Shown piece after piece: positions 4,381 to 54,625 of a stretch of DNA of 64,000 bases. The stretch's first letter is position 1; each line of letters starts with the position of its first letter. The translations under genes and the position numbers were made by a program. The notes beneath the pieces were generated by a model. It did no database searches. It was not told the origin of the DNA and saw only the letters and a program-made list of their open reading frames with translations. This DNA comes from Octopus vulgaris. Its lineage: Eukaryota. The stretch covers positions 107,384,001-107,448,000 of the forward strand of contig OX597823.1 in the NCBI GenBank assembly GCA_951406725.2. The letters run 5' to 3'.

Positions 4381-4631
4381 GAAGCATGTGTGTATATATG
4401 TGAAGACGTTGAATTATATTTCTTCCCTTACTTTGGATGGTTCCAAAGGGTGATTTCTAACAAAGATTCTTCATATTTTGCTGGTAGCTTACTGGCGCAA
4501 GATTTTTGCGAATACGAAATTATTACGTTTATGGTGTGTTATGAGAATTTATGGAAAGGTATTTCATAGAAACTCAACAAGTATGTTAAAAATGGAGAAG
4601 AGATGTTAAAATTTAAAAGAATTTTCATACA

Positions 4632-4742
4632 TGCATACGATCGTTTCAAAAAGTGATATTAACATATAAATAACATGGTAGAATAATTAAAATTAATTTA
4701 ATTAAATTAGATAAATTACAAATCACTGTTCTCCTCAGTGCA
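4632..4742 (-). ncRNA. Type I hammerhead ribozyme motif, intact core
   Basis: Minus strand: tgca-CTGAGGA-gaacagtgat...(64 nt)...atcacttttt-GAAAC-gatc-GTA-tgca. Stem I tgca/tgca, palindromic loop III. Confidence 0.7.
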
Positions 4743-4973
4743 AGAAGTATACAACAGGAAATATTATTATTACAGAAGACTTGATGAAGGAAATAGCAGA
4801 TAACAAATTCGGATATACGTATTTTATCTTTATGAAAAATTGAGAGCATACTAAAGAATGTTGTTTAGTCTAGCTGTGTATAAACTAAAGGATAAAATAT
4901 GCATATCCGAATCTGTTATCTGCTATTTCCTTCATCAAGTCTTCTGTAATAATAATTCCTGTTGTATACTTCT

Positions 4974-5059
4974 TGCACTGAGGAGAACTGGGTTATGTGA
5001 TTAATTATTTTACCATGCTATTTACATGTTAATATCGCTATTTGAAACGATCGAATGCA
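4974..5059 (+). ncRNA. Hammerhead motif, mutated cleavage triplet (GTA>GAA)
   Basis: tgca-CTGAGGA...GAAAC-gatc-GAA-tgca in the right arm of the palindrome. Confidence 0.55.
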
Positions 5060-5939
5060 TGTATTAAAATTCTTTTAAATTTTAACAGCTTCACTTCTCC
5101 ACGTTTAACATACTTGAGTTTCTATGGGATACCTTTACATAAATTATCATATTACACCATATACATGTGTGTATATATATATATATATATATATATATAT
5201 ATGTGTGTGTATATATATATATGTGTGTGTGTGTGTGTGTGTGTGTGTGTGTGTGTGTGTGTGTATGTGTTGTGTGTGTGTAAAAAATACAAGATAAAAG
5301 ATATGTGCATGTGTGTGCGCGGGTATACATATACGTATATGTGCATATATGTGTGTGTGCGTGTAGATATATATACATACACTGTGCATGTGTGTTTGTG
5401 TGTGTGTGCATGTATATATATTTTATGATTTAGCAGTCATTGCATGAAATTTTTGTCCATTTCACTATTGGATATGAATCGAAAACAAATTGTAGGATAT
5501 ATATTTGTTTTATTTATTTGTTATATTATTTTATGTATATATTATATTATATTATATTATATTATATTATATTATATTATATTATATTATATTATATATA
5601 TCATATTATAATATATTATAGTATAGTATATTTTTTATAGTATAATCATGTATTATAACGTTAATATTCTCTATTTTCTTTAATACATACATATATATAT
5701 ATATATATATATATATATATATATATATATATATATATATATATATATATATATATATATATATATATATATACATGTATGTATGTATGTATGTATGTAT
5801 GTATGTATGCATGTAGGTATATTGAAGTGTAGTAAGAAGTGTCTTTCCCAAACAAATGGCATCCTGGGTTTTGAGTCCCACTGCGTGGCACATTGGGTTA
5901 ATGTCCTCTACAATAGCTCCGGGCCGAATAAAGCCTTCA

Positions 5940-6200
5940 CGTGATCGACCAGACTGTCGGATGTTATCATACACTGCTAGTCACAATGCGCTTTGCATCA
6001 TTTTAGGTTTCAAATTATGCCACCCCGCTGACTAGGCAAGCAGCCCAACATTCTCTCAACCCCGCCCCGTCGCGGGGTTACCCATTTGCAGCAGAGCTAA
6101 GTGAAAGGAAGTGATTTGCTCAAGAACACAACACACAGTCGGTCTGCGAATCGAAACCACGATCTCACCGTCGTGAGTGCAACACCCTTAACCTCCGAAC
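5940..6200 (-). mobile_element. Diverged tRNA-derived SINE (head related to family C)
   Basis: Minus strand ...gatcgtggtttcgattcgcagaccg...cttgagcaaa..., similar to 23650-23870. Confidence 0.55.
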
Positions 6201-50746: not shown

Positions 50747-52744
50747 TGCTTAATACAAATTGCAGAGTCCAAATTAGCTTGATCTGCTAAACTTAGCTTC
50801 TCTAATGATGAGTCATAACAATGACGATGCATAGGTGTTTTGTCCAGAGTTTACAAAAGTATATCCTTGTATTGCATAGGGTCATTTCTATATATATTGT
50901 TGTTTTCTGTCGATGTTATCGAAATATTTCTTTAACCATTCATAATTATAAGGTAGTTGTTTGTAGCTTTATTCCTGACTCAAAAGAAGCAACAGGAAAA
51001 GATGTACACTGGAAAAAAAAAAGAAAAAGATGGAAAAATAAATACGAGATTCAATGTGTGTAATGTTGAAACAATTTTAATACGTGTATGTATGTATATG
51101 CATGTATATATATATATATATATATATATATATATATATATATATATATATATATGTGAGTGTGTGTGTGTGTGTGTGTGTGTGTGTGTGTGTGTGTGCA
51201 TGCACGCAGATAAATACCTTTAGATATATGTGAGTTGGTGTTACGTGCATGTTCGGTTCTTTAGTTTTGTTAAGATTGTTTTAACCATATTCCTGAATAC
51301 ACTGCGTACATGTGTACGTAAGACCAAAAACCTAAGAAAGGTGCACTCGGGTAGATATTAGGCATGTATTGCAGTTAATATTCTATCTGAAGAGATAAGA
51401 TTACGCCATGTCATTCGGAAAAAAAGAAAAGCCTTCATTCAAAACGCTTGATTCCACCCGTGTGTTTTGTGTCTCTTGTAAAATGCCCTTCAGTTCCAGA
51501 CAAGGTGTTCCGGTGTCAGGATATCTTTCACGCTACCAATCTCCTAAATTTGCACATACACACATACACACTCATATAATATGTATATATGTACGTGAAT
51601 GTATATATATATATATATATATATATATATATAAACACATATATTGCTCTTTAAAGCATGAGCACTGACACACACACCCATGCTCACGTGCACACGCACA
51701 CAGACACACTCATACACATTTACACAATTTACAAGCGCACGAAGTCTTCCCTTTTGTGTATTTCACTCGCATTCTTTCTCACTTCTTCCCCTTCATTCAT
51801 GTATTAGTTTTGGAAAAACAAGAATTTAATACTTTCTTTTTCATTGCTTTAGGCAAATTTATTGAAAATATGCATAAACATAGACATGCTTACGTGTATA
51901 CACACGCTAAATTATATGAAACCCTACTGTATTTGTTGCATTTTGTATGCAAAACACTCCTCTGAGGTATTCACCCCATCTCAGCATATTTTTAGAGGCA
52001 TACACGCTCAGGGAAGCACAAACACACAACAGCATCCACATGAACGTGTGCATATATATACAAATACACATACACTCACATACATAGGACAGTTATATGC
52101 ATATACATACGTGTATGTATGTATATCTATATATAGAGACATTTGTATGTATTTAGTTATACATACATACATGCATATATATATATTCATTATATATATA
52201 TGCATGTGTATATATATATATATATATGTATGTATTTTATATTCATTATATATGTATAGATATTCATTATATATATATATATATAAATATGATACTTAAA
52301 ACAGTTTGATTCAGTTTCGTGCTACTTCAAGTCTCACAGGCCCGTGTCAGAAGCTCGACTACTTCTGGAATTCCGAATGAAGATGTACAGGAAGTTCTGT
52401 CAGCATTCCTGGAGCCTGAAGGAGTTAGGCTCCCGTTAGGGACTTGTAAAACTTGAAGTAGCGCGGAACCGAATCAGACTCCTACTAAATGTGTTGAGTG
52501 CCCTTTTCTTTCGCCTGTTCACTCACTTATGTATACACACACACTCACACACACATACGCACGTATATACATATATAGGCGTATGTATGGATAAAACAGT
52601 TTGATTCAAATCTATCCATGTAACTCCAAATAAATTTGCTGAGTACCCTTTCGTTTGTCGCTCACTCGTATATAAATATATGTGTGCGTGTGTGTGTGTG
52701 TGTGTGTACATACACATGTACATTAGAGAAAGATAGTCACGGCT

Positions 52745-53800
52745 GGTTCATTGGGGTACCCTGGGTTTCGCGTCCGTAAAGCGCTTAGCTTCTCGTTCCC
52801 ATCTCGTGAGACCTTAATGACTGTTTACCTATAACCTCTTTTCAAAGAGGGTATAGAGAAAAGGCTTTGTAGATAGATTTTGAACACACCGATAAAAAAG
52901 GAAAGTCTAGCACAAGGGATGGATTGTTTCCCTTAGAACACTATCTGGAATCCACCCAGTGAGCTTGCGGGTCCCAGGATTTTAGTTGGAATCGCCTGAA
53001 GTATAAACTTCCATCTGGAATAAAATACATCCTGGAATTTAAGAAGTTCTTCGTTTTGAATGCGTTCTTTAGTATCCACACCCGTTCTGCTATGCACACC
53101 TTTCATCATTTACTACTTTGATGTAGGGACCCTGTTTTTCTAGAATCTTCCATGTGATTACATGTAGCGACCCTTCGTCTTTCAGGAGCCACACCTGGCT
53201 GGTCAAGGACGTAGCATAACGTCTCTCCGAGATCCTAAACGAGAATTTGTGGTTGGAGAAGCGCTGCTTAGAGCCGTTTCCAAAACATCCGATGTGTTTT
53301 CGAATGCTGTTCTTGGTGTCGTTAATGCTGGTATCTCTGTTGGTTCTGCTATAAATATCGTCATTGTTGGAGCTGTTATTGGCACTATAGTGCTGGTTGT
53401 TGTTGTCGTTGTTCTTGTTGTTATCATTATTAGCATTATCATTAGCGATGGGGCTCCTGTGCTTTCTGCTAAAGTTGCTGCCGTTGCTGTTATTATTGCC
53501 ATTCTTGCAACTGCCGTAGCTGTCGGAAAAGCTGTTGTTGATATTACGGTCAGATACTAACTCAGCCTCCTATACAAACCCCTCTGTTTTGCATTGGCCT
53601 CCCATTGGGCATCAGCTGTAGTCCCTCCATGAGCATCTCGTATCAGATCGTGGTCTAGGGGTGTTAACTAAAATATTATTGATATTGGGAGTGCAGCTAA
53701 AGGAGATTCTTAGGTTATGTCTGTTGAATAGTTGTCCGTGCCTATGTGATTGTGTAAAGTGCTTATCTACTAGCCTAATACAACCTGATAAAGTTGTTAA
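52745..53800 (-). pseudogene. Penelope-like element remnant: post-RT linker and GIY-YIG endonuclease
   Basis: ORF 53612..53857 has RLVDKHF...LFNRHNLRISFSCTPNINNIL. Hand translation of about 53297-53000 gives HIG..GNGSKQRFSNHKFSFR....YATSLTSQVWLLKDEG....ITWKILEK..PY, then a frameshift, CIAERVWI...NFLNSR. Both are typical of C-terminal-EN PLEs. Confidence 0.8.
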
Positions 53801-54199
53801 GATGGAAACCTTTATCAACAAAGAACAAAATATAGCTGCAAGACAAAAATTTCGCAAGAACTTAAGATCTAGAGAATTATATTCCAGTGCAATCTATATT
53901 TTAACATTGTAGTCACAAGATATTTTCATATACTTACATACATACATACATACATACATACATACATACATACATACATACATACATACATACATACATA
54001 CATACATACATACATACAAACATACATACATTTATATATACATATAACTTTTATTAGATTCAGCTCAAGAGCTGTGGTCATGCTGGGACCCCGTCAACAG
54101 GTGTTTGTCCACCTTCATTAATCCTCCGTTAGTTGGCATTTGATCATATATATATATATATATATATATATATATATATATATATATACAACAGAAGGG

Positions 54200-54475
54200 C
54201 TTAAGTGAAGTTTAAAATTTCCCACAGCCGTTCCGGTTGTATTTTATTGTTGCGTTCATAGATTACATCGTAGTATAAATCCAACACCCCCAGGTAAAAT
54301 TTTAAACACGTATAAACAGGTGAGATAAAACTTGAAGATGACCGGTTAGTTAGTGAATAGGTCATCGACTTATACGTGTTTAAAATTTTACCTAAGGTTG
54401 GTGAATTTATGCTATCAGTGTATGCATCAATAAAATGCTACGGAAACATCTATAGTAAATTTTTAATACCACTTC
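54200..54475. repeat. Imperfect inverted repeat in a (TA)n-bounded segment (54190-54560)
   Basis: aggtaaaattttaaacacgtataa / ttatacgtgtttaaaattttacct with weaker outer pairing. Confidence 0.6.
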
Positions 54476-54625
54476 TTTTCTTCTTTCATACATACATACA
54501 CCACACGTGGAGGCAACCCTGGATCGTTTCTACGGTTTATATGGGATTTGGTAATTAAATATATATATATACATATATGTGTGTGTGTATGTGCGTGTGT
54601 ATGTATGTATGCATCTATATATATA

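What the first reader, a model, noticed from the sequence alone, without database searches (positions are those of the whole stretch)
4560..54560. Dense population of microsatellite-embedded, non-coding mini-elements carrying type I hammerhead ribozymes
Seen: seven motifs with the full HHR core CUGANGA...GAAA...NUH at 4632(-), 17782(+), 24470(+), 27661(-), 37548(-), 37651(+) and 43524(+). Decayed ones lie at 4974, 6723, 7765, 17195, 17538, about 47260 and about 50805. Each intact motif has a 4-5 bp stem I closing correctly (tgca/tgca, gtgc/gcac, ggct/agcc, ctttc/gaaag, ccac/gtgg) in otherwise unrelated sequence, so at least five families share structure rather than sequence. Most sit in 200-550 bp non-coding inserts in or beside (TA)n/(CA)n. 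Established: minimal type I HHRs occur in Penelope-like pseudo-LTRs and in metazoan non-LTR retrozymes. Inference: these are non-autonomous, ribozyme-processed, microsatellite-targeting retroelements (or solo pLTRs) mobilised by PLE RT/GIY-YIG. Their density and diversity here may be undescribed; I cannot check this against the literature or databases.
Basis: partly seen in the sequence, partly recalled or inferred. Interest (0 to 1): 0.9.

Follow-up and report, generated by a model that had tools for sequence, protein, structure and literature searches.

The report
Octopus Penelope retrotransposon hammerhead ribozyme ends
The ribozyme motifs are real and are mostly the ends of Penelope-like jumping genes that pepper this octopus-like genome, and one young family likely inserts by copying a single spliced, uncut messenger RNA twice, once from each end of the broken target DNA.

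Summary
All seven hammerhead (HHR) motifs are real: 7 found, 0.03-0.3 in shuffles. They are 6 insertions from 5 families. The density is close to the genome norm: 23 per random 400 kb, roughly 1.5x10^5 genome-wide. Families A, B and E are pseudo-LTR ends of autonomous Penelope-like elements (PLEs) with a telomerase-like RT; a C-terminal GIY-YIG domain was seen for A and E. HHRs in pLTRs, (TA)n targeting and inverted ends are published. I did not find the anatomy of family A (37453-37873) in print. It is a spliced, pLTR-only copy whose 5' end stops sharply at an initiator-like site, often with an extra G (cap-like), and it is laid down as a palindrome. In 48 of 50 such palindromes only one arm has the tail, the arms share subfamily variants and splice isoform, and 33 of 48 junctions do not fit simple fold-back. 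This points to twin priming on one uncleaved sense mRNA, against the published antisense self-priming idea. Genomic 5' ends give no support for ribozyme processing. Family I (347-bp unit) is retrozyme-like and non-autonomous. Verdict: new variant of a known kind.

The parts
4527..5164 (.). Family B inverted pair (old palindrome, arms 76% alike); pLTR of an autonomous PLE
   Evidence: ORF follows the same pLTR in L028 and L029
4632..4742 (-). Type I HHR, family B, 84-nt stem II domain, palindromic stem III ACGAUCGU, cut after GUA
4974..5059 (+). Decayed inverted mate of the family B HHR (GUA to GAA)
6612..6830 (-). Family F2, ~220-bp TA-flanked element with a minimal HHR (U4C in this copy); 7 hits per random 400 kb
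7765..7805 (-). Minimal HHR-like motif with G8A; no relative among fetched loci, not searched genome-wide
17100..17698 (+). Family I: short inverted arm plus more than one 347-bp non-coding unit with decayed HHRs at 17195 and 17538; retrozyme-like and non-autonomous
17700..17961 (+). Family C insertion with partial inverted arm; HHR 17782-17867, 58-nt stem II domain
24470..24581 (+). Type I HHR, family D, 85-nt stem II domain, palindromic stem III ACAGCUGU
27496..27875 (-). Family E 3' end with short inverted arm; HHR 27661-27742
37453..37623 (-). Family A tail-less arm: spliced pLTR copy reaching +1 (37622) plus a cap-like G (37623); HHR 37548-37590; splice joint at 37599/37600
37622..37873 (+). 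Family A tail-bearing arm: spliced pLTR copy; splice joint at 37641/37642; HHR 37651-37693; tail about 37791-37873; 2-nt overlap with the other arm
43351..43651 (+). Family E 3' end (HHR 43524-43606) with an inverted tail piece; parent carries RT and GIY-YIG
47169..47370 (-). Family F, ~200-bp TA-flanked element; minimal HHR with family-wide A6U core, GAAA mutated in this copy; 10 hits per random 400 kb
53093..53569 (-). Decayed PLE endonuclease-end fragment
   Evidence: (E 3e-5)

Best explanation
The motifs are type I hammerhead sequences in the pseudo-LTR ends of Penelope-like retrotransposons inserted in (TA)n/(CA)n, and the young family A palindrome was likely made by copying one capped, spliced, uncleaved sense RNA twice, from both ends of the cut target (twin priming). 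Shown: parent ORFs for families A, B and E; the family A parent has a 23-nt first exon, a 1.15-2.4-kb GT-AG intron ending just above HHR stem I, and two 3' end points about 85 bp apart; short copies lack the intron precisely and stop at +1; their two arms match each other and only one carries the tail. Inferred steps: (1) Pol II starts at an initiator in the pLTR and the cap-proximal intron is spliced. (2) The RT/GIY-YIG protein, probably a dimer, nicks both strands of (TA)n. (3) One DNA end primes at the inner start site (tail-less arm) and the other at the outer site (tail arm) on the same RNA. (4) Both cDNAs run toward the cap through the uncut HHR and are joined by 1-6-nt microhomology. 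(5) Long copies likely keep the intron because their pLTR lies inside the RNA, far from the cap. The HHRs are predicted to cleave only as dimers or with protein help, and cleaved RNA seems rarely to serve as template.
For: Parents: the RT model matches telomerase best (Foldseek E 2e-10; VIA Z 17.5, rmsd 3.7, 288 aligned); RT motif LYRDD and a C-terminal VVY-YIG/CCHH domain. Splicing: donor and acceptor seen in all 7 long copies printed; 17 of the first 30 exact HHR hits are spliced, 9 keep the intron, 4 are truncated or other; 48 of 50 palindromes cross the splice joint; 15 of 15 classifiable ORF-proximal pLTRs keep the intron. 5' end: 27 of 30 arms that reach +1 stop exactly there, 17 of those 27 have G at -1 where the parent has C, two of them directly against (TA)n; only 5 of 64 continue 6 nt or more upstream. 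Twin priming: exactly one tail in 48 of 50; a common SNP is in both arms 32 times and in one arm once, where independent arms would give 37.9 one-sided; donor class agrees in 68 of 70; tail arm longer 15, tail-less longer 14, loop under 3 nt 19 of 48, microhomology in 36 of 48; both arms full-length in L098 and L227. In vitro precedent: the anole PLE protein extends both strands, starts at two sites that define the tail, is modelled as a dimer, and does not need HHR cleavage (PMC11167929).
Against: No biochemical test was run. Fifteen of 48 junctions also fit cDNA fold-back (about four rows were parsed poorly because of mismatches). Palindrome centres can be rearranged after insertion. Arm agreement could reflect two RNAs from one source locus, and L010 and L093 have arms of different isoform. 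The -1 G is often also explained by the opposite arm. The detailed mechanism rests on one family; parents of C and D rest on one copy each, and F, F2 and I have no parent found. Pfam names neither the RT nor, above cut-off, the endonuclease.
Confidence: 0.74

Rival explanations
1. Same PLE origin, but the palindromes form by cDNA fold-back or by self-priming on an antisense template (Arkhipova 2013), with centres later rearranged by cruciform processing.
For: 15 of 48 junctions allow a fold-back loop. Fold-back also predicts identical arms. Proposed in PMC3846280.
Against: An antisense template cannot give GT-AG-spliced, cap-ended copies. Fold-back cannot put the full-length end on the tail-less arm (14 of 48), nor give two full-length arms or two isoforms. 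Private variants are mostly one-sided (42 one-sided against 4 mirrored singletons), so later homogenisation is weak.
Confidence: 0.12
2. One reading: independent non-autonomous retrozyme-like elements that self-cleave, circularise and are mobilised in trans.
For: Family I is a 347-bp non-coding unit with circularly permuted, more-than-unit copies. F and F2 are short and very abundant. Animal retrozymes are reported to be pLTR derivatives (bioRxiv 2026.07.22.740005).
Against: A, B and E run into ORFs. Family A has one sense HHR per strand and its ends do not map to the cut.
Confidence: 0.1
3. The palindromes are MITE-like DNA transposons or fold-back artefacts, and the HHR matches are incidental.
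For: Long inverted repeats at TA sites resemble MITEs.
Against: Precise intron loss, variable junctions, a one-sided tail, ORF-bearing parents, and 58,742 core matches against 3,109 for the reversed control.
Confidence: 0.02

Closest known systems
EN+ Penelope-like elements with a Cys-rich RT-EN linker (Neptune/Nematis type; Craig et al. 2021, PMC8557442)
   Same: Single ORF with telomerase-like RT and C-terminal GIY-YIG; pLTR with HHR; partial tandems; inverted 5'-truncated copies; tail at one end; microsatellite bias; intron in the pLTR
   Different: The tail is about 85 bp rather than 30-40. The intron is 1.15-2.4 kb. The linker is C-x-C-x5-C-x5-C in family A and absent in the E copy aligned, so the clade is unresolved. 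Most family A HHR copies are spliced, whereas PLEs are known for keeping introns.
PLE minimal hammerheads (Cervera and de la Pena 2014, PMC4209133)
   Same: Type I, 4-5-bp stem I, palindromic short stem III, many unrelated families per genome, mostly solo, some opposite-strand pairs 100-700 bp apart
   Different: Stem II domains of 50-85 nt are common here. No cephalopod is named in the parts read. The estimate of about 1.5x10^5 compares with 9,000 in Xenopus, but the descriptors differ.
Poseidon PLE of Anolis in vitro (Frangieh et al. 2024, PMC11167929)
   Same: Two RT start sites define the tail; both target strands are extended; HHR cleavage is not needed
   Different: That work does not address inverted copies, splicing or whether one RNA is copied twice; this genome gives the in vivo footprint.
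Non-LTR retrozymes (PMC7229834; bioRxiv 10.64898/2026.07.22.740005)
   Same: Family I: non-coding ~350-bp unit with a type I HHR in more-than-unit tandem
   Different: No long arrays were seen; family I has PLE-style inverted arms; families A-E are not tandem non-coding units.
LINE-1 twin priming (recalled, from no call)
   Same: Both target ends prime on one RNA and the cDNAs join by microhomology
   Different: L1 gives an inversion without overlap; here both cDNAs would copy the same RNA stretch, giving a palindrome.

Membership tests
EN+ Penelope-like element | RT closest to telomerase RT | tested here: met
   Top Foldseek and VIA hits for the family A RT model are TERTs
EN+ Penelope-like element | C-terminal GIY-YIG endonuclease with CCHH in the same ORF | tested here: met
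   Motifs seen in A and E; Pfam PF01541 is only weak for E, E=0.023, below cut-off; the long copies read carry frameshifts
EN+ Penelope-like element | pLTRs: partial tandem, inverted 5'-truncated copy, one-sided tail | tested here: met
EN+ Penelope-like element | HHR and intron/promoter within the pLTR | tested here: met
   Family A; promoter activity itself was not tested
Neptune versus Nematis clade | CX2-5CxxC linker and placement in the RT phylogeny | tested here: inconclusive
   A Cys-rich linker is present in A but does not match the written pattern; no named reference set was available for a tree
Type I hammerhead ribozyme | Conserved core CUGANGA/GAAA/NUH with stems I-III | tested here: met
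   7 of 7. Stem II closes poorly at the core in C and D. Stem III is predicted to pair as a dimer, -3 to -11 kcal/mol
Type I hammerhead ribozyme | Self-cleavage | not testable with these tools
   Genomic 5' ends show little use of cleaved RNA as template
Non-LTR retrozyme | Non-coding tandem units, each with a type I HHR | tested here: inconclusive
   Family I has the unit structure but the window HHRs are decayed; not met for A, B and E, which have ORFs
Non-LTR retrozyme | Circular RNA intermediate | not testable with these tools
   No raw RNA reads were offered

The most novel reading that the evidence does not exclude
Penelope-like elements make their inverted ends by two polymerases copying the same capped sense RNA from both target ends. 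Cap-proximal splicing gives abundant dead-end, spliced, pLTR-only palindromes, while internal pLTRs escape splicing, which would explain the intron-retention puzzle without an antisense template. The result in this genome is about 10^5 hammerheads, many with a greatly enlarged stem II that published descriptors and Rfam would miss.
Probability: 0.55. Interest if true: 0.72.

Novelty: new variant of a known kind. Interest (0 to 1): 0.52.

Why it matters
Craig et al. 2021 (54 passages) list three open points for PLEs: how the inverted structures form, why introns are retained, and what the HHR does. Family A is young (95-99% alike), has at least 185 short inverted junctions with built-in markers (splice isoform, SNPs, tail, cap-like G), and has near-intact parents. 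That makes all three points directly testable. It also suggests that some of the many unclassified 'SINE' families in octopus repeat annotations may be PLE ends, and that cephalopods may hold one of the densest natural hammerhead collections.

Tried and rejected
(1) Family A as a fixed-length palindromic non-autonomous element with a parvovirus-like flip/flop centre. This came from a query spanning the centre; unbiased pattern searches showed variable junctions and long parents. (2) HHR cleavage sets the element's 5' end. One striking copy (L106) starts at the cut, but it is 1 of 30, and only 2-3 of 11 nearby junctions end there. (3) The window as a hot spot: rejected by random sampling. (4) Rfam gave only microsatellite-driven miRNA noise and nothing at gathering threshold. 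(5) Pfam and PDB sequence searches did not name the RT. (6) Expression: no RNA holder was listed as recorded RNA. Four guessed-RNA contig sets cover the element, and one contig in one run shows the spliced joint. This is no evidence either way, since spliced copies exist as DNA. (7) Earlier findings of this scan: nothing in three look-ups. (8) Lunse et al. 2017 was not held. Repbase and Dfam were not available, and no paper supplements were read; they may list octopus PLEs.
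Full report
1. OBSERVATION. The window is AT-rich (36% GC) and 17% microsatellite. It lies at G000:C10:107384001-107448000 in a 2.8-Gb assembly of 227 contigs. 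The only named homologue of an associated protein is from Octopus bimaculoides, 63% identical over 17% of the query, so I call the host octopus-like. A structure descriptor finds exactly the seven cited type I hammerheads. Shuffles give 0.03-0.3. Stem III plus its loop is a palindrome in five motifs (one of them with a G-U pair) and nearly so in the other two, and it is predicted to pair between two molecules. This is the published signature of PLE hammerheads (PMC4209133, parts 1-2 of 4 read). Five of the seven have a 53-85-nt stem II domain. The seven motifs are six insertions from five families, here called A-E. Each family has 745-1,394 first-look candidates in the genome.

2. DENSITY. One core pattern alone (4-nt loop III, stem II domain 10-70 nt) has 58,742 matches genome-wide, against 3,109 for the reversed control. 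Forty arbitrary 10-kb stretches (399,900 bases) hold 23 descriptor hits, against 1.25 in shuffles. That is 3.7 per 64 kb, or roughly 1.5x10^5 genome-wide (Poisson range about 0.9-2.3x10^5, wider with clustering). The window's 7 is therefore about twice the mean and not exceptional. 64% of those hits lie within 250 nt upstream of (TA)4, against 21% of background positions. For scale: 126,247 type I motifs in axolotl (PMC7229834 passage) and about 9,000 minimal ones in Xenopus; the descriptors differ.

3. PARENTS. [quoted passage not shown] The family B pLTR is followed by a related RT in two independent loci (L028, L029). Family A long copies carry both domains (L101, L102, L106, L109, L235), and the RT model's best solved matches are telomerases. 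C and D each have 1 of 14 other copies beside a PLE RT fragment, which is only suggestive. A decayed PLE endonuclease piece lies at 53093-53569(-). Inverted pairs with variable spacing, from 27 nt to 14 kb, and pLTR-ORF partial tandems match the PLE architecture in PMC8557442 (passages).

4. FAMILY A ANATOMY. A 32-mer of its HHR occurs 978 times. All 7 long copies printed have a 23-nt exon after an initiator-like sequence, a GTAAGT-type donor, a 1.15-2.4-kb intron, and an acceptor about 10 nt above HHR stem I. The window copy (37453-37873) joins exon to acceptor precisely in both arms. Of the first 30 exact hits in genome order, 17 are spliced, 9 keep the intron and 4 are truncated or other. 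Of 30 ORF-bearing copies, 15 keep the intron in the upstream pLTR, none is spliced, 6 are truncated below the HHR and 9 were not classified. Of 64 spliced arms that reach +1, 5 (at 4 loci) continue upstream. In the 30 inspected, 27 stop exactly at +1, and 17 of these 27 have G at -1 where the parent has C. Many of these Gs could also come from the opposite arm, but two sit directly against (TA)n. I read this as the reverse-transcribed cap of a Pol II transcript (inference).

5. HOW THE PALINDROME FORMS. There are 185 short inverted junctions. I analysed the first 50 in genome order, plus 29 of 34 extra loci; 5 of the extras had no parsable pair. One arm carries the ~85-bp tail and the other does not in 48 of 50 (29 of 29 in the extras), and 48 of 50 cross the splice joint. 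The arms agree. The commonest SNP is in both arms 32 times and in one arm once, where independent arms would give 37.9 one-sided cases; five rarer shared variants are mirrored too. Donor class agrees in 68 of 70. Private changes are mostly one-sided (42, against 4 mirrored singletons), so later gene conversion is not the main cause. Simple cDNA fold-back needs the tail arm to be longer by a loop. That holds in 15 of 48, while the tail-less arm is longer in 14 and the loop is under 3 nt in 19; 36 of 48 show microhomology. Two loci have both arms full-length, and two have arms of different isoform. The simplest account is two cDNAs, primed from the two target ends at the two start sites of usually the same RNA and joined end to end. 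This fits the anole PLE protein, which extends both strands, starts at two sites that define the tail, is modelled as a dimer and does not need HHR cleavage (PMC11167929, parts 1-2 of 4). It conflicts with self-priming on an antisense template, proposed to explain both palindromes and intron retention (PMC3846280 passages). In Drosophila Penelope most transcripts are spliced although the intron is retained during transposition (PMC2377424 passages). Here spliced copies are abundant but carry no ORF. A likely reason is that only the cap-proximal copy of the intron is spliced and the RT can start at the pLTR sites near the 5' end of the mRNA (inference).

6. ROLE OF THE RIBOZYME. Copies pass through the intact HHR to the cap. 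Only 11 inverted junctions lie near the cut, 2-3 of them ending at it by eye, and 1 of 30 ORF-bearing copies starts there. Cleaved RNA is therefore rarely the template in family A. The conserved core across unrelated families still implies selection for some function, such as trimming read-through RNA, regulation, or RNA dimerisation through stem III; none was tested. A full palindrome transcript would fold into a ~165-bp hairpin (-264 kcal/mol) that hides the HHR.

7. OTHER FAMILIES. Family I (17100-17698) is a 347-bp non-coding unit. Copies elsewhere are circularly permuted and longer than one unit, with short inverted arms, so it is retrozyme-like. A 2026 preprint derives animal retrozymes from pLTRs (parts 1-3 of 5 read; its text names no mollusc among the sampled classes). 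F and F2 are ~200-bp TA-flanked elements with loop-less minimal HHRs, 10 and 7 hits per 400 kb. F has a family-wide CUGUNGA core, and no parent was found for either.

8. LITERATURE AND VERDICT. HHRs in pLTRs, solo copies, opposite-strand pairs, microsatellite bias and tails are known (also PMC6765202 passages). An octopus repeat annotation lists 31 recently active Penelope-like families and 893 unclassified SINE families, and its main text never mentions ribozymes (PMC13282606 passages). Nine searches listed no paper on cephalopod hammerheads, on spliced pLTR-only copies or on twin priming in PLEs. Subscription papers, supplements, Repbase and Dfam were not seen. Most of the finding is ordinary PLE debris. 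The spliced, cap-ended, twin-primed palindromes and the scale of the hammerhead load are the new part. Novelty: new variant of a known kind; interest 0.52.

Noticed in passing
window 32712-32951, 50527-50746, 50033-50234, 54203-54474: Further TA-flanked palindromes (the first two are one family) without a canonical HHR core by my descriptor; they could be HHR-less PLE ends or MITEs
   Followed up: partly
window 40133-40516 and 45224-45610: Two 95%-identical copies of a ~385-bp imperfect palindrome, with partial copies at 44854-45139
   Followed up: no
window 47169-47370 and L237-L250: Family F carries a fixed A6U hammerhead core (CUGUNGA) in a very abundant element, about 10 hits per 400 kb
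   Followed up: partly
L266:9024-9049 and L267:1951-1966: Another family of very short inverted HHR pairs in (TA)n in the random sample, so short palindromic HHR insertions are not limited to family A
   Followed up: no
L101, L103, L107, L109, L110: The family A 3' region holds tandem duplicates (1.2-1.75 kb) of the initiator-exon-donor unit; the second copy has a different donor whose spliced product occurs in short copies (L010, L201)
   Followed up: partly
L039, L101, L106 ORFs: Asparagine-rich inserts between RT and endonuclease, as reported for rotifer Penelope ORFs (PMC3846280)
   Followed up: no
window 15916-16320(-), 16501-16866(+), 291-797(-): Mariner transposase remnant (Pfam Transposase_1), a second Tc1/mariner-like piece and a LINE RT remnant (the last two judged by eye)
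   Followed up: no
window 48389-49460: GC-richer stretch with several overlapping open frames and no Pfam match for the two frames scanned
   Followed up: no
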